Shown: positions 11,731-53,052 of the stretch, one piece after another
Numbering within the stretch: position 1 is the first letter of the stretch
Layout: each line of letters starts with the position of its first letter
Origin: Pelagibacteraceae bacterium
Lineage (GTDB): Bacteria > Pseudomonadota > Alphaproteobacteria > Pelagibacterales > Pelagibacteraceae
Length of the DNA: 64,000 nucleotides
Assembly (NCBI GenBank): GCA_008638015.1
Contig: VTPD01000002.1
Coordinates: forward strand, 7,724-71,723
Direction: 5' to 3'
The notes under the pieces: model-generated
Told to the model about the DNA's origin: nothing
The model's database searches: none
The model's input: the letters and a program-made list of their open reading frames with translations, nothing else
Made by a program: the position numbers and the translations under genes

Positions 11731-12201
11731 TTATTTGTTTAAATAGTCAATAAAACCTTGCAAAATAAAAGCTGCTGAATTTTCATCCAATCTCTCTTTT
11801 TTAGATGAGCTATTAATGTTTAATTTCTCCATGCTTTTAAATGCACCTTCGCTAGATAATCTTTCATCCCACAAAGTGACAGGTAAAGAAATAAATTTTA
11901 ATATATTTTTAACAAAGTCCTTCGTTGATTGAGACCTTCGACCTTCAGAACCATCCATGTTTATTGGGTGACCAACAACTATACCTTTAATTTCATTTTC
12001 TAAAATTATTTTATTTAATTTTTCAATGACATTTTTAAGCTTGTCCACTTTGATAGTTTCATAAGGTGTAGCTATAATGTGCGAGCTATCACAAATGGCC
12101 ACTCCAATATTTTTTTTACCAGGATCAATTCCTATCAAACGCGAGCTTTTACCAACTTCTTGGGCAAATTCAGAATTCTCTAAAAGGTTGTAAGTTTTCA
12201 T
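11731..12201 (-). CDS. ruvX: Pre-16S rRNA nuclease YqgF/RuvX
   Basis: IGIDPGKKNIGVA, LWDERLSS, AAFILQG. Confidence 0.93.
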   Translation of the reverse strand: MKTYNLLENSEFAQEVGKSSRLIGIDPGKKNIGVAICDSSHIIATPYETIKVDKLKNVIEKLNKIILENEIKGIVVGHPINMDGSEGRRSQSTKDFVKNILKFISLPVTLWDERLSSEGAFKSMEKLNINSSSKKERLDENSAAFILQGFIDYLNK

Positions 12202-12238
12202 TAAAGTGTTAATTTACCGTAATTTTTCACTAAGTCTA

Positions 12239-12526
12239 ATGTCAATTAATAAAGAAACAGTAAAGAAAATTTCAAAGTTATCAAGAATTGCTTCAAATGA
12301 ACAATTTGAAGACTCTATGATTAAAGATCTTAATTCTATTTTGACATTTGTTGAACAGTTAAATGAATTAAACATTAAAAATATTGAACCTTTATCCTCT
12401 GTCGTAGAGCAAAAATTATTTCAGCGAGAAGATGTTGTTAAAATAATGAATGAAAAGGAAGATGTATTAAAAAACTCACCACATAAAAATGAGAATTATT
12501 TTGTAGTTCCAAAAGTGATCGAATAA
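12239..12526 (+). CDS. gatC: Glu/Asp-tRNA amidotransferase subunit C
   Basis: KISKLSRI...REDVV...YFVVPKVIE; start revised to ATG 12239. Confidence 0.95.
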   Translation: MSINKETVKKISKLSRIASNEQFEDSMIKDLNSILTFVEQLNELNIKNIEPLSSVVEQKLFQREDVVKIMNEKEDVLKNSPHKNENYFVVPKVIE

Positions 12527-12530
12527 TTGA

Positions 12531-13994
12531 ATGACTACAATTGCAAAATATACTTTAGTTGAACTAGTTAACAAAATTAAGTCCAAAGAAATTTCAGCTG
12601 TTGACGCTACAAATGCCTATGTTGAAAGAATTCAAAAATCAAAAAAATTAAATGCATTTGTGACTGAAACTTTAGAAAGTGCTTTAGAGCAAGCAAAAAA
12701 GGCTGATGAAATTAATCAAAAAGATGGAGCTTTATCTTGTGCGCCGATTGCGGTTAAGGATTTATTTTGTACTAAAAATGTTCAAACTACTGCATCAAGT
12801 AAAATTTTAAAAAATTTTATTCCTACTTATGAGTCTACCGTCACTTCTAAACTTTGGGACCAGGGTGCGTTTCTTTTAGGAAAATTAAATTGTGATGAAT
12901 TTGCCATGGGATCTTCCAACGAAACAAGCGCTTATGGTAATGTTATTAATCCCTACAAAAATAATAATGACGATTTAGTTCCCGGAGGTTCATCTGGAGG
13001 TTGCTCTTCAGCTGTAGCTGCTGATTTAACATCTGCTACCGTTGGAACAGACACAGGTGGATCTATTAGACAACCAGCTGCTTTTACTGGGATAGTTGGA
13101 TTAAAGCCTACTTATGGCAGGTGTTCAAGGTGGGGAATTGTTGCTTTTGCATCCTCATTAGATCAGGCAGGACCCATGACTAAAGATGTTGCTGATAGTG
13201 CATTAATGCTTGATGTAATTTCAGGTCATGATGAAAAAGACTCAACTTCAGCAAATGTTAAGAAAGGAGAATTCTTAAAAAATTTAAATAAAGATATTAA
13301 AGGCTTAAAGGTAGGAATTCCAAAGGAATACATCGTAGACAATATGCCAAAAGCAATACAATCTTTATGGGATAAGGGAATAGAGTTAATGAAAGACTCT
13401 GGCGCTATTATTAAAAATATTTCATTACCACACACAAAGTACGCTCTGCCGACGTATTACATAGTTGCTCCAGCTGAAGCCTCTTCTAATTTAGCTCGTT
13501 ATGACGGTGTAAAATATGGTTTTAGAGCTCCAGGAAAAGATTTAATAGAAATGTATGAAAATACTAGAGCTCAGGGGTTTGGCAATGAGGTTAAACGAAG
13601 AATTATGATTGGAACTTATGTTTTGTCTTCCGGTTACTATGATGCTTATTATTTAAAAGCTCAACAAGTTAGAAGATTAATTAAAAATGATTTTGATAGT
13701 GTTTTTAATGAAGTGGATACAATTTTAACACCTACTGCACCATCTTCTGCTTTTAAAATTGGAGACAAAACTGAAGATCCAATTTCTATGTATCTGAACG
13801 ATGTTTTTACCGTCCCTGTAAATTTAGCAGGATTGCCTGCAATTTCTTTACCAGGAGGATTAGATGAAACTGGTTTGCCTTTAGGATTGCAGTTAATTGG
13901 AAAATCTTTTGATGAACAAACTGTTTTAAATGCTGCGTATGCATTGGAGGAAAAAATTGGATTTCAATCACAAGTAAAAGATTGGTGGATGTAA
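12531..13994 (+). CDS. gatA: Glu/Asp-tRNA amidotransferase subunit A
   Basis: [40 protein letters not shown]. Confidence 0.98.
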
Positions 13995-15461
13995 ATGACT
14001 GAAAAAGAATTTGATTATTATTTAGAGGGACAAACTGGAAAATGGGAGGTTATCATCGGCTTAGAAGTGCATGCACAAGTTACATCCAATGCTAAATTAT
14101 TCTCATCCTCATCAACTAAATTTGGTTCTGATCCTAACTCACAAGTTAGTTTAGTTGATGCTGCAATGCCAGGTATGCTTCCTGTGATCAATAAGTATTG
14201 CGTAGAGCAAGCAATCAAAACAGGACTTGGACTAAAAGCAAAGATTAATAATTTTTCAAAATTTGATAGAAAAAATTATTTTTATGCAGATTTGCCTCAA
14301 GGATATCAAATATCTCAATTTAAGTTCCCTATAGTTGGAGAAGGAAAAGTTATTTTAGATATGCCTTATGGTACTAAAGAAGTTGGTATTGAAAGATTAC
14401 ACTTAGAGCAAGATGCCGGAAAAAGTTTACATGATCAAGATCCCCAAAATTCTTTTGTCGATTTAAATAGATCTGGAGTAGCTTTAATGGAAATTGTTGG
14501 TAAGCCTGACCTGAGATCTCCTGAAGAAGTCGGTCAGTACGTAAAAAAATTACGCTCTATTATGCGTTATTTGAATACTTGTGATGGTAACATGGATGAA
14601 GGTTCTTTGAGAGCTGATGTCAACGTATCTGTTAGAAAAGTAGGGTCTACTGAACTTGGTACAAGATGCGAAATTAAAAATGTTAACTCAATAAAATTTA
14701 TGCAGCAAGCCATTGAATATGAAGCAAAACGTCAAATTGAGATAATTGAACAGGGTGGCGCTATTAATCAAGAAACAAGATTGTTTGATACAAAAAAAAT
14801 GGAAACTAGATCGATGAGAAGCAAAGAGGATGCGCATGATTATCGATATTTTCCCGATCCTGATTTATTACCATTAGAATTAGATCAAGATTATGTAGAT
14901 ACTATCAAGAAATCATTACCCGAGCTTCCAGATGAAAAGAAATCAAGATTAATGAATGATTTTGGCCTTTCCAGTTATGACGCAAGTATAATTATATCAG
15001 ATCAAGAAATCTCAACCTATTATGAAGAGGTTGCTAAAAACTCTGATTATAAACTCGCTGCAAATTGGATGATCGTTGAGCTCTTTGGTATCTTAAATAA
15101 AGAAAATAAAGAAATTAAAGATTCACCAGTATCAGCAAAAAATTTATCAAAATTAATTAATCTTATTAAAGATAATACAATATCAGGAAAAATTGCAAAA
15201 ACAGTTTTTGAAGATATGATAAAAGGTGACCAAGATCCTGAGGTAATAATAAATAAAAAAGGTCTAAAGCAACAATCGGATCCTAAAGAATTAGAAAAAA
15301 TAATAGATAAAATTGTACAATCTAATTTAGATAAGGTTGAACAATATAAGTCAGGAAAAGATAAATTGTTTGGTTTTTTTGTTGGTCAAGCAATGAAAGA
15401 AACACAAGGTAAAGGAAATCCAAAATTAATAAACGATATTTTAAAAGAAAAATTAAAATAA
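13995..15461 (+). CDS. gatB: Glu/Asp-tRNA amidotransferase subunit B
   Basis: [43 protein letters not shown]. Confidence 0.98.
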
Positions 15462-15464
15462 ATT

Positions 15465-16133
15465 GTGTTAAAAAATATCAGTTTTACACCAGAACTAGAA
15501 AAATATTTAAATCAAAACTCTATTGAAAATTTAGTTTTACAAGAACTAAGAGATTTTTCCTTTAAAGAATTGGGCGATGTTGCAAATATGCAAGTAAGTC
15601 CTGAGCAGGCATCTTTTCTGCATATGCTTATAAAAATTGGAAATTACAGTCAAATTTTAGAAGTGGGAACATTTATGGGGTATAGCACTTTAGCGATGGC
15701 CCTCGCATTAAATGATAATGGAAAAATTATTACAGTAGATCATGATCTCAAAACTACAAAGCATGCTACAAAATTTTGGAAACAAGCAAATGTCTTGGAT
15801 AAAATTACTTTAATAAATGAAGATGGTTCAAAATCTTTACAACAATTTAAAGAAGAAAAATTTATATTTGATTTTATTTTTATAGATGCGGATAAATCAG
15901 GATATAAAAATTACTTAGAATTATGTCTTAATTTAATATCTGATAATGGATTGATTGTGTTTGACAATGTTTTGTGGAAAGGAAAAGTTACTGATCCATC
16001 TATTAATGACAAGAAAACCAACACTATTAGGGAGTTTAATGATTTTATTAAAAATGATAATAGAGTGGATACAACAATGATTTCCATAGGCGATGGAATG
16101 ACATTATGCCAGAAGAAGAAAATTTTGAGATAA
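15465..16133 (+). CDS. SAM-dependent O-methyltransferase (COG4122, CCoAOMT/TrmR-like)
   Basis: MQVSPEQ, LEVGTFMGYS, DFIFIDADK, DNVLWKG, GDGMTL; GTG start. Confidence 0.9.
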   Translation: MLKNISFTPELEKYLNQNSIENLVLQELRDFSFKELGDVANMQVSPEQASFLHMLIKIGNYSQILEVGTFMGYSTLAMALALNDNGKIITVDHDLKTTKHATKFWKQANVLDKITLINEDGSKSLQQFKEEKFIFDFIFIDADKSGYKNYLELCLNLISDNGLIVFDNVLWKGKVTDPSINDKKTNTIREFNDFIKNDNRVDTTMISIGDGMTLCQKKKILR

Positions 16134-17008
16134 TTAGCTTTTATAAATTTGCTCATTTAAATAATCTTGAAAAGTTTCAATTAACTATAAAAAAATATTT
16201 GATTGATAACCATTTAAAAGGAACAATTATTATATCGCCCGAAGGTGTTAACGGTACAATTTCAGGCAAATTTGGTTTTATAAATGAATTTAATAATTTT
16301 ATTTATAACATTTTTTCTTTTGATAATTTTGATGTTAGTAACGTGTCCAAAACTAATTCAATTCCTTTTGAAAGACCTAAGGTTAAAATTAAAAAGGAAG
16401 TTGTTCCAATAGAAAAAAAAGTAATAAGTAGAGAAGGTAAGCACATATTGCCTAAAGATTGGAATGATTTTATTCAAAAAGACGATGTTACAGTCATTGA
16501 CATCAGAAAATCTTTTGAAAACAAAATTGGAAGTTTTCAAGGTGCAATTAATCCAAATGTAAATAGTTTTAGAGAATTTAAAGGTTATTTTGATGAGCTT
16601 GTTAAAAAAAATAATAAAAAATTAGCTATTTTTTGCACAGGTGGAATTCGTTGCGAGAAAGCTTCTGAATATTTGAAAGAAAAAGGTGTTGAGGAAGTCT
16701 ATCAATTGCAGGGGGGTATTTTAAATTATATCAATACTATTCCTGAGGAAGAAAGTTTATGGATGGGTGAATGTTACGTTTTTGATAAAAGAGTTGCCGT
16801 CAAACATAATTCCAACCCAGGAAGCTACACTATGTGTTATGGCTGTCGTATGCCAATCAATGATAAAGACAAACAATCAGAAAAATTTATTGAAGGTATT
16901 GCTTGCCCTTACTGTTATGATAAATCTAGCGATGAGCAAAAAAAAAGATTTGCTATGAGACAATTTAATAAAACAAAAAATAAGGAACACTGTAAAAATG
17001 ATAAATAA
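16106..17008 (+). CDS. trhO: Rhodanese-domain tRNA uridine(34) hydroxylase (TrhO/YceA)
   Basis: SFYKF, GTIIISPEGVNGT, KVKIKKEVV, FCTGGIRCEKAS, LQGGILNY, CYVFDKRVAV, C-terminal CxxC pairs. Confidence 0.92.
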   Translation: MPEEENFEIISFYKFAHLNNLEKFQLTIKKYLIDNHLKGTIIISPEGVNGTISGKFGFINEFNNFIYNIFSFDNFDVSNVSKTNSIPFERPKVKIKKEVVPIEKKVISREGKHILPKDWNDFIQKDDVTVIDIRKSFENKIGSFQGAINPNVNSFREFKGYFDELVKKNNKKLAIFCTGGIRCEKASEYLKEKGVEEVYQLQGGILNYINTIPEEESLWMGECYVFDKRVAVKHNSNPGSYTMCYGCRMPINDKDKQSEKFIEGIACPYCYDKSSDEQKKRFAMRQFNKTKNKEHCKNDK

Positions 17009-17480
17009 TATACCTGATGTTAACTTTGTAGTCAGAGTTGATGGAAAATTTGAAACTAAAAAAAGCGATTTTTATTTTGCAAATAAAAAAATTGTCTTAT
17101 TCGCTTTGCCAGGTGCATTTACACCGACCTGCACAAGTTACCATTTACCAAGTTACGAGGATAAATATGATGAATTTAAAAAAATTGGTATTGATGAAAT
17201 TTATTGTTTATCTATGAATGATCCTTTTGTGATTGAGTTTTGGAAAAAGGATCAAAAAATTTCAAAAGTTAAGTTTATTCCAGATGGAAATGGAGATTTT
17301 ACAAAAGCTATGAATATGATTTCAGATCGTTCCGCTTCAGGTATGGGTCCAAGATCTTTTCGCTATTCCATGTACATTGATAACAAAAAAATTGTTAAAA
17401 TTTTTAAGGATGAAGATGGAAAGTTTGATGTGAGTGATTCAGGAACTATGTTGAATTTCTTACAATCGATGAATGGCTAA
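16998..17480 (+). CDS. Peroxiredoxin, Prx5/type II family
   Basis: LFALPGAFTPTCTSYHLP, SMNDPFV, DGNGDFT, RSFRYSM. Confidence 0.95.
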   Translation: MINNIPDVNFVVRVDGKFETKKSDFYFANKKIVLFALPGAFTPTCTSYHLPSYEDKYDEFKKIGIDEIYCLSMNDPFVIEFWKKDQKISKVKFIPDGNGDFTKAMNMISDRSASGMGPRSFRYSMYIDNKKIVKIFKDEDGKFDVSDSGTMLNFLQSMNG

Positions 17481-17769
17481 AAAATCAAACAGACCAATTA
17501 CCAAGTCTGCTAATCCAGAACCAAAAGACAAATCAAGTAATGATTGGATTATTTGGGCTGCTTGGGCTGATCGTATTACTTTTGAGGATATAAAAAAAAA
17601 TTCTAATAAAACAGAGTCTGAAGTCATTAAGATAATGAGATCTACCCTCAAGCCAGGCTCCTTTAAACTCTGGAGACAAAGAGTTCGTGAGAAATCGATA
17701 AAAAATCGTAAGAAATTTGAATATTCAAGAAAAATATTAAAAGATAAAAGTTATAAAAAAGAATTTTAA
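17473..17769 (+). CDS. TIGR03643-like small basic protein, unknown function
   Basis: IIWAAWADRITFEDI...VIKIMRSTLKPGSFKLWRQRV pattern recognised from memory. Confidence 0.7.
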   Translation: MAKKSNRPITKSANPEPKDKSSNDWIIWAAWADRITFEDIKKNSNKTESEVIKIMRSTLKPGSFKLWRQRVREKSIKNRKKFEYSRKILKDKSYKKEF

Positions 17770-17838: not shown

Positions 17839-17930
17839 GGTCAGGTGGGTGAGAGGCTGAAACCAGTCGTTTGCTAAATGACCTTACGAGTAACATCGTA
17901 ACGAGGGTTCGAATCCCTCCCTGACCGCCA
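17839..17930 (+). tRNA. tRNA-Ser (GCT)
   Basis: Acceptor GGTCAGG/CCTGACC, anticodon arm GTCGT-TTGCTAA-ATGAC, long variable arm, GGTTCGAATCC, encoded CCA. Confidence 0.97.
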
Positions 17931-17935
17931 TAATT

Positions 17936-18670
17936 ATGTTAAAAAAAACCTTTTCATTGGGAGAAGTTCTCTCTTCTTCTTTTCAGTTTGTCTTTTCCAA
18001 TTTTAGCAAAAGATTGAAAGATGGTTTTGTAATTGTATTCATTGTTACAGTTGCGTTTAATTTATTAAATTTTTTAATTAGCAAATCTATTGCAACAAAT
18101 TTTACTATCGTTTTATTTATTTTGTTCTCAATGTTTTTAACAAGTTCTATTGGAATTTCTGTACATAGAGAAATTTTAGTTAAAATTAAACAACCTTATT
18201 TATCTGAACTGTTAACAGCAAATTGTTTTAAATACTTTTTAACTATATTAACTTTGACGATAATTGCAGTTTCTCCCCTGATTATACATTATCTATTTAA
18301 GAGCAGTGGGAATTTAAAAATATTAAATTTAGATATATCTTATCTATTCTTTCTTTGGATATTTTCAGTCATTATCTCACTGAAATTTATTTTTAATTTA
18401 CCAAAAATTGCATTAAATAAAAAAACTCAATTTTCAATTACATCTATGAATGAATGTGGAAATAAATTATTTGTTCTTTTTATTGTTATTACTCTAATTT
18501 TTTTCATACCTTCCTTTATTATTTTATCAGTGCAAATCACATTGTTAACAAACAATCAGGAGATCTATGCAATCGCGAAACCTTTATTTGATCTACTATC
18601 TTTTTATATATCTTATATTAATTATTTGGTTTTATTTGCAGCAATTTCTTTTGCTTATCAAAAAAATTAA
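17936..18670 (+). CDS. Hypothetical integral membrane protein (~6 TM)
   Basis: 244-aa ORF of alternating hydrophobic segments; no motif recognised. Confidence 0.7.
   Translation: MLKKTFSLGEVLSSSFQFVFSNFSKRLKDGFVIVFIVTVAFNLLNFLISKSIATNFTIVLFILFSMFLTSSIGISVHREILVKIKQPYLSELLTANCFKYFLTILTLTIIAVSPLIIHYLFKSSGNLKILNLDISYLFFLWIFSVIISLKFIFNLPKIALNKKTQFSITSMNECGNKLFVLFIVITLIFFIPSFIILSVQITLLTNNQEIYAIAKPLFDLLSFYISYINYLVLFAAISFAYQKN

Positions 18671-52975: not shown

Positions 52976-53052
<77 letters not shown>

What the first reader, a model, noticed from the sequence alone, without database searches (positions are those of the whole stretch)
15465..17008. O-methyltransferase overlapping trhO right after gatCAB: candidate TrhO plus TrmR-like pathway to wobble 5-methoxyuridine
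Seen: gatB, 3-bp gap, COG4122 O-methyltransferase, 28-bp overlap with trhO, all in one apparent operon of tRNA-acting genes. Established: TrhO hydroxylates U34 to ho5U; Bacillus TrmR (YrrM, same COG4122 fold) methylates ho5U to mo5U and is linked to the trhP genes; E. coli-type Gram-negatives instead use CmoA/CmoB to make cmo5U. Inference: this streamlined alphaproteobacterium may use an O2-dependent TrhO plus a TrmR-like enzyme, a pairing I do not know to be described. Caveat: the DADK and DNVLW motifs are also typical of metal-dependent catechol OMTs, so the substrate is not proven.
Basis: partly seen in the sequence, partly recalled or inferred. Interest (0 to 1): 0.75.

Follow-up and report, generated by a model that had tools for sequence, protein, structure and literature searches.

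The report
TrhO-coupled non-TrmR O-methyltransferase in SAR11
In the very abundant marine SAR11 bacteria, the gene for the enzyme that hydroxylates the wobble uridine of tRNA is always overlapped by a catechol-type methyltransferase gene that is not the known Bacillus enzyme TrmR; at about even odds it completes the pathway to 5-methoxyuridine, an idea already hinted at in print and never tested.

Summary
gatC-gatA-gatB, a PF01596 O-methyltransferase (15465-16133) and trhO (16106-17008) lie on one strand, with a 3-bp gap and a 28-bp overlap. The organism is a Pelagibacterales MAG.

- **TrhO:** a bona fide orthologue (NCBIfam equivalog above cut-off, CTGGIRC loop).
- **Other pathway genes:** the genome (95% complete) has no CmoA, CmoB or U32/TrhP, and only this one PF01596 gene.
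- **The OMT is not a TrmR orthologue.** It lacks TrmR's diagnostic Arg86/Arg90/Arg178 and long loop. It has DADK rather than DAAK. It is separated from the TrmR clade with 99/99 support, and it folds like SafC, SynOMT and the Legionella/Coxiella OMTs.
- **Linkage in the family:** the pair is adjacent wherever coordinates were listed in Pelagibacteraceae (99/100 genomes carry each gene; the one lacking either lacks both).
- **Linkage elsewhere:** rare. I found two other adjacencies, and co-occurrence across Pseudomonadota is at chance. Bartonella keeps ho5U unmethylated.
- **New support:** TrhO-OMT fusion proteins carry a DADK-type OMT domain. SAR11 OMTs branch next to these fusions, outside the general bacterial clade.

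I put mo5U34 synthesis at about 0.5 and an unrelated small-molecule OMT at about 0.35. The TrhO-plus-"TrmR" pairing is already tabulated in Sakai 2019. This scan noted the same pair on other SAR11 DNA before.

The parts
12206..12526 (+). gatC, first gene of the co-directional cluster. The start may lie about 11 codons downstream, as in relatives.
   Evidence: ORF; 53-83% identical orthologues in the same position in L005-L007 and L140.
12531..13994 (+). gatA (amidase subunit of the tRNA-dependent amidotransferase)
   Evidence: ORF; conserved synteny.
13995..15461 (+). gatB
   Evidence: GatB_N 1e-119 and GatB_Yqey 3e-52.
15465..16133 (+). Cation-dependent class I O-methyltransferase of the CCoAOMT/SafC/SynOMT/COMTD1 type, 222 aa. 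Candidate ho5U34 methyltransferase. Not a TrmR orthologue.
   Evidence: PF01596 1.3e-65. PDB best hits 3r3h at 2e-52 and 3cbg at 2e-46, against TrmR 5zw3 at 2.4e-19. AF2 model pLDDT 95.5. Foldseek top hits 5log, 3tr6 and 3cbg, with TrmR not in the top 50. Motif comparison. Trees.
16106..17008 (+). trhO (O2-dependent tRNA U34 5-hydroxylase), overlapping the OMT stop by 28 nt
   Evidence: NF001133 at 268 bits, above the cut-off of 170. UPF0176_N plus Rhodanese. 4f67 at 5.5e-58 and 9j5o 'tRNA uridine(34) hydroxylase' at 2e-36, with CTGGIRC aligned.
16998..17480 (+). Prx5-like peroxiredoxin, overlapping trhO by 11 nt. A cluster member in part of the family only.
   Evidence: Redoxin 1e-25. Present after trhO in L005, L006 and L140 but not in L007.
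17473..17769 (+). DUF2805/TIGR03643 small protein, last ORF of the cluster
   Evidence: PF10985 1e-22; TIGR03643 at 81.9 bits.
52976..53052 (+). tRNA-Pro(UGG), the only tRNA-Pro found in the assembly. A predicted substrate of TrhO (U34, purine 35).
   Evidence: ARAGORN. Substrate class from PMC6158493 and PMC6599085.

Best explanation
The Pelagibacteraceae carry a fixed gatCAB-OMT-trhO transcription unit.

- **TrhO (high confidence, about 0.85).** It uses O2 to hydroxylate U34 of the tRNAs that read four-codon boxes (Pro-UGG, Ser-UGA and Thr-UGU are present), giving ho5U34.
- **The OMT (about 0.5, inferred).** The upstream, translationally coupled OMT is a metal-dependent SAM O-methyltransferase of the catechol/CCoAOMT architecture. 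It keeps the Asp141/Asp167/Asn168 metal triad and the catalytic Lys144. It most likely binds the 4-oxo/5-hydroxy edge of ho5U the way its relatives bind a catechol, and transfers a methyl group to O5, giving mo5U34.
- **How it might reach tRNA (inferred).** It is not an orthologue of Bacillus TrmR and lacks TrmR's own tRNA-binding arginines. I therefore infer that it reaches the anticodon loop as a partner of TrhO. The gene overlap suggests 1:1 co-synthesis, and in eukaryote-like fusion proteins the same kind of OMT domain is covalently joined to TrhO.

Shown here: gene content, synteny, family memberships, residues and phylogeny. Inferred: substrate, product and the complex.
For: 1. **Tight, conserved linkage.** The OMT lies directly upstream of trhO, overlapping or abutting it, in L005-L007 and L140. 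The same holds in 17/17 Pelagibacterales loci and, wherever coordinates were listed, in Pelagibacteraceae (99/100 genomes carry each gene). The single genome lacking one gene lacks both. OMT identity falls to about 40% within the family.
2. **Nothing else in the genome could modify ho5U.** No CmoA, CmoB or U32/TrhP was found, and there is only one PF01596 gene.
3. **Rosetta-stone fusions.** A HMMER scan of 1.84 billion representatives found TrhO-OMT fusions. P0349 (681 aa) has UPF0176_N+Rhodanese+Rhodanese_C+Methyltransf_3; P0331 and P0373 are partial. Their OMT domains carry DADK/DANK and DNVLW. They score 127-149 bits against CCoAOMT-like OMTs and 64-112 bits against the TrmR clade.
4. **Tree position.** The 38 'general' bacterial OMTs form one clade (99/93). 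That clade excludes the SAR11 OMTs, which sit next to the fusion clade.
5. **Shared residue losses.** 21 of 92 general-clade-conserved residues are replaced family-wide in SAR11. 18 of those 21 are also replaced in the fusions and in TrmR (odds ratio 17.7; control lineages 0.5-5.7). Lys occupies the TrmR-Arg86 position in 16/21 SAR11 OMTs.
6. **Other adjacencies.** Two further independent OMT-trhO adjacencies exist: G032 (divergent) and Rivularia (convergent).
7. **Feasible chemistry.** A catechol-type PF01596 enzyme, Rv0187, methylates free ho5U to mo5U (PMC6543040).
Against: 1. **TrmR hallmarks are absent.** The residues specific to TrmR orthologues (Arg86, Arg90, Arg178) read H/T/I in the window protein. 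The long tRNA-ordering loop is missing.
2. **No basic patches.** The protein is acidic (pI 5.7, against a proteome median of 8.9) and lacks TrmR's basic patches.
3. **Close homologues occur without any ho5U synthase.** Five of five complete alphaproteobacterial genomes with the OMT lack both TrhO and U32.
4. **Co-occurrence with TrhO is at chance.** It is 39 observed against about 48 expected in 401 Alphaproteobacteria, and 53 against 53.6 in 401 Pseudomonadota. Apart from the window's own genome, none of the other 52 phylum-sample genomes with both genes shows adjacency where coordinates could be compared.
5. **TrhO commonly stands alone.** Five of five TrhO-bearing genomes have neither a convincing PF01596 gene (one weak partial match in a 456-aa ORF) nor CmoB. 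Bartonella henselae has terminal ho5U34 by LC-MS (PMC10965804).
6. **Negative biochemical precedent.** Rv0187 did not act on ho5U-tRNA.
7. **Weak value of adjacency in SAR11.** These genomes are extremely compact and syntenic, so the family-wide adjacency counts as one evolutionary event. The downstream neighbours (peroxiredoxin, DUF2805) have nothing to do with tRNA.
8. **Tree caveat.** The SAR11 position in the tree may be affected by AT-driven composition, which treekit flagged.
Confidence: 0.5

Rival explanations
1. TrhO makes ho5U34 and that is the final modification, as in Bartonella. The OMT is an ordinary small-molecule, catechol-type methyltransferase (hydroxycinnamate, catecholic or other vicinal-diol metabolite). 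It was inserted between gatB and trhO once, in the Pelagibacteraceae ancestor, and has stayed there because SAR11 gene order is frozen.
For: - The best sequence and structure matches are catechol OMTs: SafC, SynOMT, LiOMT, norbelladine OMT and CCoAOMT.
- The full metal/catechol catalytic set is present and the TrmR arginines are absent.
- Homologues are common in genomes without TrhO or TrhP.
- Co-occurrence with TrhO is at chance.
- The OMT clade has no conserved neighbours outside SAR11.
- Terminal ho5U34 is documented in an alphaproteobacterium.
- Rv0187 is inactive on ho5U-tRNA.
- The protein has an acidic pI.
Against: - It does not explain why 21 residues conserved in 100 other clade members changed family-wide in SAR11, mostly at positions that also differ in TrhO-fused and TrmR enzymes.
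- It does not explain why TrhO-OMT fusions use this OMT type.
- It does not explain the start/stop overlap kept across about 60% sequence divergence, or the joint absence in the one genome lacking either gene.
- No catechol-generating or catechol-consuming pathway was seen next to the gene.
Confidence: 0.35
2. The OMT acts on some other substrate connected with TrhO chemistry or with translation. Candidates are free 5-hydroxyuridine or 5-hydroxyuracil (an oxidised pyrimidine), another RNA, or a protein, as has been claimed for the Anaplasma PF01596 enzyme.
For: - Rv0187 methylates the free ho5U nucleoside.
- A peroxiredoxin follows trhO.
- The Anaplasma OMT (4oa5/4pca) is a comparably distant relative (3.5e-22). 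It is cited in PMC6543040 as required for tick-cell infection.
Against: - No specific evidence was found here.
- The peroxiredoxin is not part of the cluster in all subclades (absent after trhO in L007).
- No nucleoside-salvage genes lie nearby.
Confidence: 0.1

Closest known systems
Bacillus subtilis TrhO/TrhP1-P2 plus TrmR (YrrM) pathway to mo5U34 (Ryu 2018, PMC6158493; Sakai 2019, PMC6599085)
   Same: It has the same first enzyme (TrhO) and the same Pfam family for the second enzyme (PF01596, SAM, Asp/Asp/Asn metal site, catalytic Lys). The predicted product is the same, mo5U34. The second gene is linked to a ho5U-synthase gene.
   Different: The SAR11 OMT is outside the TrmR clade (99/99). 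It lacks Arg86/Arg90/Arg178, the VPI(M) loop and the 170-182 insertion, and has DADK rather than DAAK. It is linked to trhO, not to trhP1/P2. No activity data exist.
yceA(trhO)-'trmR' fusion proteins of Phytophthora and Phaeodactylum (Sakai 2019), and the fusions found here (P0349, P0331, P0373)
   Same: TrhO is coupled to a PF01596 OMT of the DADK/DNVLW type. The fusion OMT domains are closer to the window's OMT type than to TrmR and branch next to the SAR11 OMTs.
   Different: These are one polypeptide in the order TrhO-OMT, in eukaryote-like genes (split exons in L141-L143, N-terminal extension in P0349). SAR11 has two overlapping genes in the order OMT-trhO. The fusions carry Glu where SAR11 has Asp92.
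Bacterial cation-dependent catechol OMTs: Legionella 3R3H, Coxiella 3TR6, Synechocystis SynOMT 3CBG, Myxococcus SafC 5LOG, Leptospira LiOMT 2HNK; vertebrate COMTD1 2AVD
   Same: These are the best sequence matches (E 1e-52 to 1e-42) and structure matches (TM 0.89-0.93). Motifs and catalytic residues are the same.
   Different: SAR11 OMTs have replaced 21 of 92 residues conserved in this clade and are excluded from it in the tree. Those enzymes are stand-alone genes with no conserved neighbour. Legionella and Coxiella do have TrhO and no CmoAB, but their tRNA modifications are untested.
Bartonella henselae, with terminal ho5U34 (PMC10965804)
   Same: It is an alphaproteobacterium with TrhO and without CmoAB, and with a reduced genome.
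   Different: According to the paper, it stops at ho5U and does not make cmo5U. SAR11 has an extra OMT coupled to trhO.
E. coli CmoA/CmoB(/CmoM) pathway to cmo5U/mcmo5U
   Same: It starts from the same ho5U34 made by TrhO.
   Different: cmoA and cmoB were not found in this genome (best hits 29 and 24.5 bits, against cut-offs of 193 and 275).

Membership tests
TrhO (YceA/YbfQ) tRNA U34 hydroxylase | UPF0176 acylphosphatase-like N-domain plus rhodanese domain (plus Rhodanese_C) | tested here: met
   PF17773 8.8e-22 and PF00581 6.5e-9; Rhodanese_C is weak.
TrhO (YceA/YbfQ) tRNA U34 hydroxylase | Score above the curated equivalog cut-off | tested here: met
   NF001133 at 268.3 bits against a cut-off of 170.
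TrhO (YceA/YbfQ) tRNA U34 hydroxylase | Active-site loop CTGGIR(C) (E. coli C200, T201, G203, R205 are essential) and the basic KVKxKKE strand (K112) | tested here: met
   The window protein has FCTGGIRCEK and PKVKIKKEVV, aligned to 4f67 and 9j5o. Residue roles come from PMC6599085 and PMC10135228.
TrhO (YceA/YbfQ) tRNA U34 hydroxylase | O2-dependent formation of ho5U34 on tRNA | not testable with these tools
   Needs LC-MS of tRNA or an in vitro assay.
TrmR (YrrM) tRNA ho5U34 O-methyltransferase | PF01596 Rossmann fold with a SAM site and the Asp133/Asp159/Asn160 metal site | tested here: met
   PF01596 1.3e-65. D141/D167/N168 and K144 are aligned and invariant in 21 SAR11 OMTs.
TrmR (YrrM) tRNA ho5U34 O-methyltransferase | Arg86, Arg90 and Arg178, conserved specifically in TrmR orthologues (tRNA backbone contacts; PMC6158493) | tested here: not met
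   The window protein has His93, Thr97 and Ile. SAR11 relatives have Lys/Thr/gap-or-Asn.
TrmR (YrrM) tRNA ho5U34 O-methyltransferase | The loop of residues 164-185 that becomes ordered on tRNA binding, the His34-Val35-Pro36 loop, and the DAAK motif | tested here: not met
   The loop is 6 residues shorter and net acidic. MQVSPEQ stands in place of VPIM, and DADK in place of DAAK.
TrmR (YrrM) tRNA ho5U34 O-methyltransferase | Groups phylogenetically with validated TrmR (5ZW3, 8K1F) | tested here: not met
   The TrmR clade is split off at 99/99 and 99/91. phmmer gives 2.4e-19 to 5zw3 against 2e-52 to 3r3h. TrmR is not among the top 50 Foldseek hits.
TrmR (YrrM) tRNA ho5U34 O-methyltransferase | Genomic linkage to a ho5U34 synthase gene | tested here: met
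   The gene overlaps trhO, family-wide.
TrmR (YrrM) tRNA ho5U34 O-methyltransferase | Methylates ho5U34-tRNA | not testable with these tools
   Needs an E. coli delta-cmoB or B. subtilis delta-trmR complementation, or an in vitro assay.
CCoAOMT-like cation-dependent catechol OMTs (SafC/SynOMT/LiOMT/COMTD1 clade) | Sequence and fold closest to this group; DADK, DNVLW and MQ(I/V)SPEQ motifs | tested here: met
   (TM 0.89-0.93; pLDDT 95.5).
CCoAOMT-like cation-dependent catechol OMTs (SafC/SynOMT/LiOMT/COMTD1 clade) | Retains the residues conserved across the bacterial clade and nests inside it | tested here: not met
   21 of 92 residues that are at least 75% conserved are replaced family-wide (for example E31Y, T32N, C91L, R159x, A215C). 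The 38 general-clade sequences form a clade that excludes SAR11 (99/93). Composition bias is a caveat.
CCoAOMT-like cation-dependent catechol OMTs (SafC/SynOMT/LiOMT/COMTD1 clade) | Methylates catechols | not testable with these tools
   Needs an enzyme assay.
CmoA/CmoB cmo5U pathway | cmoA (TIGR00740) and cmoB (TIGR00452) are present | tested here: not met
   The best hits score 29.2 and 24.5 bits, far below the cut-offs of 193 and 275. The genome is 95% complete.

The most novel reading that the evidence does not exclude
A second lineage of ho5U34 O-methyltransferases exists, independent of TrmR. These would be DADK-type, catechol-OMT-like enzymes that have no tRNA-binding arginines of their own and work physically coupled to TrhO. 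The lineage would be shared by Pelagibacteraceae (overlapping genes) and eukaryote-like TrhO-OMT fusion proteins. By extension, vertebrate TSTD2 (the TrhO orthologue) and COMTD1 (the orphan mitochondrial OMT of this superclade, about 55% identical to cyanobacterial members) could make mo5U in eukaryotic RNA.
Probability: 0.15. Interest if true: 0.8.

Novelty: new variant of a known kind. Interest (0 to 1): 0.5.

Why it matters
SAR11 is among the most abundant organisms in the ocean and nothing is known about its tRNA modifications. If the OMT makes mo5U34, three things follow.

- The textbook split would fail for a major Gram-negative lineage. That split is mo5U in Gram-positives through TrmR, and cmo5U in Gram-negatives through CmoAB.
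- The ho5U methyltransferase would have arisen at least twice within PF01596.
- The many genomes annotated with a 'caffeoyl-CoA O-methyltransferase' next to or fused with trhO would get a function.

It would also give a testable lead for the orphan eukaryotic pair TSTD2/COMTD1.

If the OMT does not make mo5U34, SAR11 joins Bartonella as an organism that stops at ho5U, and the OMT remains an unexplained housekeeping catechol-type enzyme in a streamlined genome. One LC-MS run on Pelagibacter tRNA would settle the question either way.

Tried and rejected
1. **Fusion search with a concatenated query.** I searched for OMT-TrhO fusions with the window's OMT+TrhO concatenated and with a concatenated profile. 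The five 'fusions' at the top (P0007-P0011) are SAR11 sequences with internal deletions or a lost stop codon, from low-coverage assemblies. gatB is also broken on the 2x-coverage contig L134. I rejected them as artefacts.
2. **Same trick with a cyanobacterial OMT.** No TrhO fusion appeared among the 120 rows shown. It did show that COMTD1 belongs to this superclade.
3. **Conserved neighbours of the OMT clade outside SAR11.** I found none.
4. **Surface charge as a proxy for RNA binding.** SAR11 OMTs are less acidic than their relatives, mostly in active-site-face segments, but still acidic and unlike TrmR's basic loops. This is confounded by the Lys-rich proteome, so it is inconclusive.
5. **SAR11-specific lysines at TrmR contact positions.** They occur at the Arg86-equivalent and near the Arg181-equivalent in 16/21 sequences, but not in the window protein at position 93, and the loop alignment is uncertain. 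Suggestive only.
6. **Overlap of residue losses with the fusions and TrmR.** Control lineages show that part of the signal is rate heterogeneity.
7. **Relatives of G032.** I looked for them to see whether the second adjacency is conserved. None are held.
8. **The marine gammaproteobacterial pair noted earlier in this scan.** I looked for it in a 400-genome phylum sample and did not find it.
9. **Promoter and terminator scan.** Counts are at chance level. The only notable site is an 11/12 promoter-like match upstream of gatC.
Full report
**What is there.** Window 12206-17769 holds seven co-directional, tightly packed ORFs: gatC, gatA, gatB, an O-methyltransferase (15465-16133), trhO (16106-17008), a Prx5-like peroxiredoxin and a DUF2805 protein. 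There are 3 bp between gatB and the OMT, and the OMT stop lies 28 nt inside trhO. Pfam and NCBIfam identify the parts. The only good promoter-like site lies upstream of gatC (11/12 match at 12050-12078). No terminator-like hairpin appears on the + strand between gatA and the end of the cluster. The organism is a Pelagibacterales MAG of 1.09 Mb, 95% complete and about 30% GC.

**TrhO.** The protein scores 268 bits on the TrhO equivalog model against a cut-off of 170. It aligns over its catalytic part to Legionella Lpg2838 (4F67, 5.5e-58) and to a solved 'tRNA uridine(34) hydroxylase' (9J5O). It keeps the CTGGIRC loop and the KVKxKKE strand whose residues are essential in E. coli (PMC6599085, PMC10135228). 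Predicted substrates are encoded: tRNA-Pro(UGG) (the only tRNA-Pro found), tRNA-Ser(UGA) and tRNA-Thr(UGU). The MAG's tRNA set is incomplete, with 24 genes.

**What else the genome has for xo5U.** cmoA, cmoB and the U32 peptidase family (TrhP) were not found. The window's OMT is the only PF01596 gene.

**The OMT is not a TrmR orthologue.**
- Against the PDB it matches bacterial cation-dependent catechol OMTs at 1e-52 to 1e-42: Legionella 3R3H, SynOMT 3CBG, SafC 5LHM, LiOMT 2HNK and Coxiella 3TR6. It matches TrmR (5ZW3) only at 2.4e-19 and another solved ho5U methyltransferase (8K1F) at 1e-15.
- Ryu et al. (PMC6158493) define TrmR orthologues by Arg86, Arg90 and Arg178, which bind the anticodon-loop backbone and are missing from other PF01596 members. 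In an alignment anchored on the PDB-verified TrmR sequence, the window protein has His, Thr and Ile at these positions. It also lacks the 6-residue extension of the tRNA-ordering loop. It has MQVSPEQ in place of the VPIM loop and DADK in place of DAAK.
- An ML tree separates the TrmR clade from the window OMT and all alphaproteobacterial homologues with 99/99 support.
- An AlphaFold model (pLDDT 95.5) finds SafC, Coxiella OMT, SynOMT, norbelladine OMTs and LiOMT as nearest folds (TM 0.89-0.93). TrmR is not in the first 50.

**How far the linkage extends.**
- The order gatCAB-OMT-trhO is kept in three other genera and in 17 of 17 Pelagibacterales loci recovered from GTDB genomes.
- In 100 Pelagibacteraceae genomes, 99 have the OMT and 99 have trhO, adjacent wherever coordinates were listed. 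The single genome lacking one lacks both.
- The sister family has trhO in a different context. It has no CCoAOMT-like OMT, only an animal-COMT-like 'DHxK' methyltransferase elsewhere.
- Outside the order the linkage is rare. Among about 35 other alphaproteobacterial genomes with both genes, one (G032) has them divergent and about 50 bp apart. Among 63 non-SAR11 loci from many phyla, one (Rivularia) has them convergent. Apart from the window's own genome, the 401-genome Pseudomonadota sample holds 52 genomes with both genes, and none of them shows adjacency where coordinates could be compared.
- By my rough estimate, about 0.1 chance adjacencies would be expected over these roughly 120 genomes. 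Two extra events are therefore more than chance, but few.
- Co-occurrence is at chance: 39 observed against about 48 expected in the class sample, and 53 against 53.6 in the phylum sample.
- Five complete genomes with a 1e-42 homologue of the OMT lack both TrhO and U32. Five complete genomes with TrhO lack CmoB and any convincing PF01596 gene; one has a weak partial match in a 456-aa ORF.
- The OMT clade has no recurrent neighbour outside SAR11.
- Bartonella henselae, an alphaproteobacterium, carries ho5U34 as the end product (PMC10965804).
- So neither gene needs the other in general.

**New evidence that ties this OMT type to TrhO.** I used an artefactual SAR11 read-through ORF (P0007) as a natural two-domain query against 1.84 billion representative proteins. 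This recovered TrhO-OMT fusions.
- P0349 (681 aa) has the full architecture UPF0176_N, Rhodanese, Rhodanese_C and Methyltransf_3. P0331 and P0373 are N-terminally cut copies.
- P0373 lies on at least seven metagenome contigs. The gene calls there are split like eukaryotic exons, and the UPF0176_N part sits about 180 bp upstream. P0349 is a transcript-like 2.1-kb contig with an N-terminal extension.
- The TrhO parts keep CTGG(I/V)RC. The OMT parts have DADK or DANK and DNVL(W/F).
- The OMT parts score 127-149 bits against CCoAOMT-like OMTs, against 64-112 bits for the TrmR clade.

These are the kind of fusions Sakai et al. reported for Phytophthora and Phaeodactylum and labelled 'trmR'. Their Supplementary Data 2 shows that this label is applied very broadly, apparently at Pfam level (the sheet is titled 'Pfam registered'). 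Chicken, Legionella and Coxiella all count as TrmR+.

In a tree with the fusions included, the 38 'general' bacterial OMTs form one clade (99/93). That clade excludes the SAR11 OMTs, which branch between it and the fusion clade. Consistently, 21 of the 92 residues conserved in at least 75% of 100 general-clade OMTs are replaced throughout SAR11. Of these 21, 18 are also replaced in both the fusions and TrmR (odds ratio 17.7). Divergent control lineages inside the general clade give odds ratios of 0.5-5.7, so part of the signal is rate heterogeneity. The catalytic set (D141, K144, D167, N168) is invariant. The G032 and Rivularia OMTs, by contrast, are ordinary general-clade members. Compositional bias of the AT-rich SAR11 sequences is a caveat for the tree position; treekit flagged it.

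**Mechanism and odds.**
- Shown: an intact TrhO; an intact metal-dependent OMT of the catechol architecture; obligatory coupling of the two genes in one family; no alternative ho5U-modifying enzyme; the same OMT type fused to TrhO elsewhere.
- Known chemistry: ho5U presents a 4-oxo/5-hydroxy pair resembling a catechol, and a catechol-type PF01596 enzyme (Rv0187) methylates free ho5U to mo5U, though not ho5U-tRNA (PMC6543040).
- Inferred: the SAR11 OMT methylates ho5U34 on tRNA, and it probably gets access through TrhO rather than through TrmR-like arginines of its own.

I put this at about 0.5. I put the rival (terminal ho5U34 plus an unrelated small-molecule OMT held in place by SAR11's frozen synteny) at about 0.35. 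I put other substrates at about 0.1.

**Novelty.** The TrhO-to-TrmR route is established in Bacillus. The TrhO-plus-PF01596 pattern in Gram-negatives and eukaryotes is already tabulated, and its fusions were used as a discovery clue by Sakai et al. 2019. I found no paper on SAR11 tRNA modification or on this operon. Two points appear to be new. First, the partner of TrhO in SAR11 and in the fusions belongs to a PF01596 lineage distinct from TrmR. Second, SAR11 OMTs have diverged from the general catechol-OMT clade in the same places. This scan had already noted the same gene pair on other SAR11 windows, and related pairs in a gammaproteobacterium, DPANN archaea and a red alga. Those notes were leads only.

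Noticed in passing
window 17839-17930 (+): tRNA-Ser(GCU) lies 70 nt after the DUF2805 gene, at the end of the gatC-to-DUF2805 cluster. A terminator-like hairpin follows at 17959-17980.
   Followed up: no
window 16998-17769: A Prx5-like peroxiredoxin overlaps trhO by 11 nt, and a DUF2805/TIGR03643 gene overlaps the peroxiredoxin by 8 nt. This tail is conserved in L005, L006 and L140 but is missing after trhO in L007, so it is not an obligatory part of the OMT-trhO unit.
   Followed up: partly
P0007-P0011; L134:2818-4251: Public protein collections hold apparent single-chain OMT-TrhO 'fusions' that are SAR11 sequences with internal deletions or a lost stop codon, from low-coverage assemblies. 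gatB is also split on the same 2x-coverage contig. They could mislead domain-fusion surveys.
   Followed up: yes
L141:4530-6524, L142, L143; L144:38-2083: TrhO-OMT fusion genes on eukaryote-like contigs. The UPF0176_N part is a separate ORF about 180 bp upstream of the Rhodanese+OMT part (intron-like). One transcript-like contig encodes the whole 681-aa protein with an N-terminal extension of about 95 aa that could be an organellar presequence. The organisms are unknown.
   Followed up: partly
L135:1518-2147, L136:1687-2316, L137, L138 (sister family of Pelagibacteraceae): The second family of the order lacks the CCoAOMT-like OMT. It has a protein of 209-213 aa with the animal-COMT-type 'FIDHxK ... 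ADNV' motifs, unlinked to trhO.
   Followed up: partly
L009:5221-7473 (G187, 24.5% GC alphaproteobacterium): Here trhO (50% identical) is followed on the same strand by an inositol monophosphatase gene and a Sua5/YrdC (TsaC, t6A synthesis) gene. No OMT is nearby. The genome is only 71% complete.
   Followed up: no
one search hits P0190, P0200, P0225 and others: Vertebrate COMTD1 proteins are 55-57% identical to a cyanobacterial (Rivularia) member of this OMT clade, which is unusually high for a bacterium-animal pair. Vertebrates also have the TrhO orthologue TSTD2.
   Followed up: no
G000 whole assembly: Only 24 tRNA genes are found in the MAG. Val-UAC, Ala-UGC and Leu-UAG are missing, probably with the unassembled rRNA operon. 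The decoding strategy of the family boxes cannot be read from this assembly.
   Followed up: no
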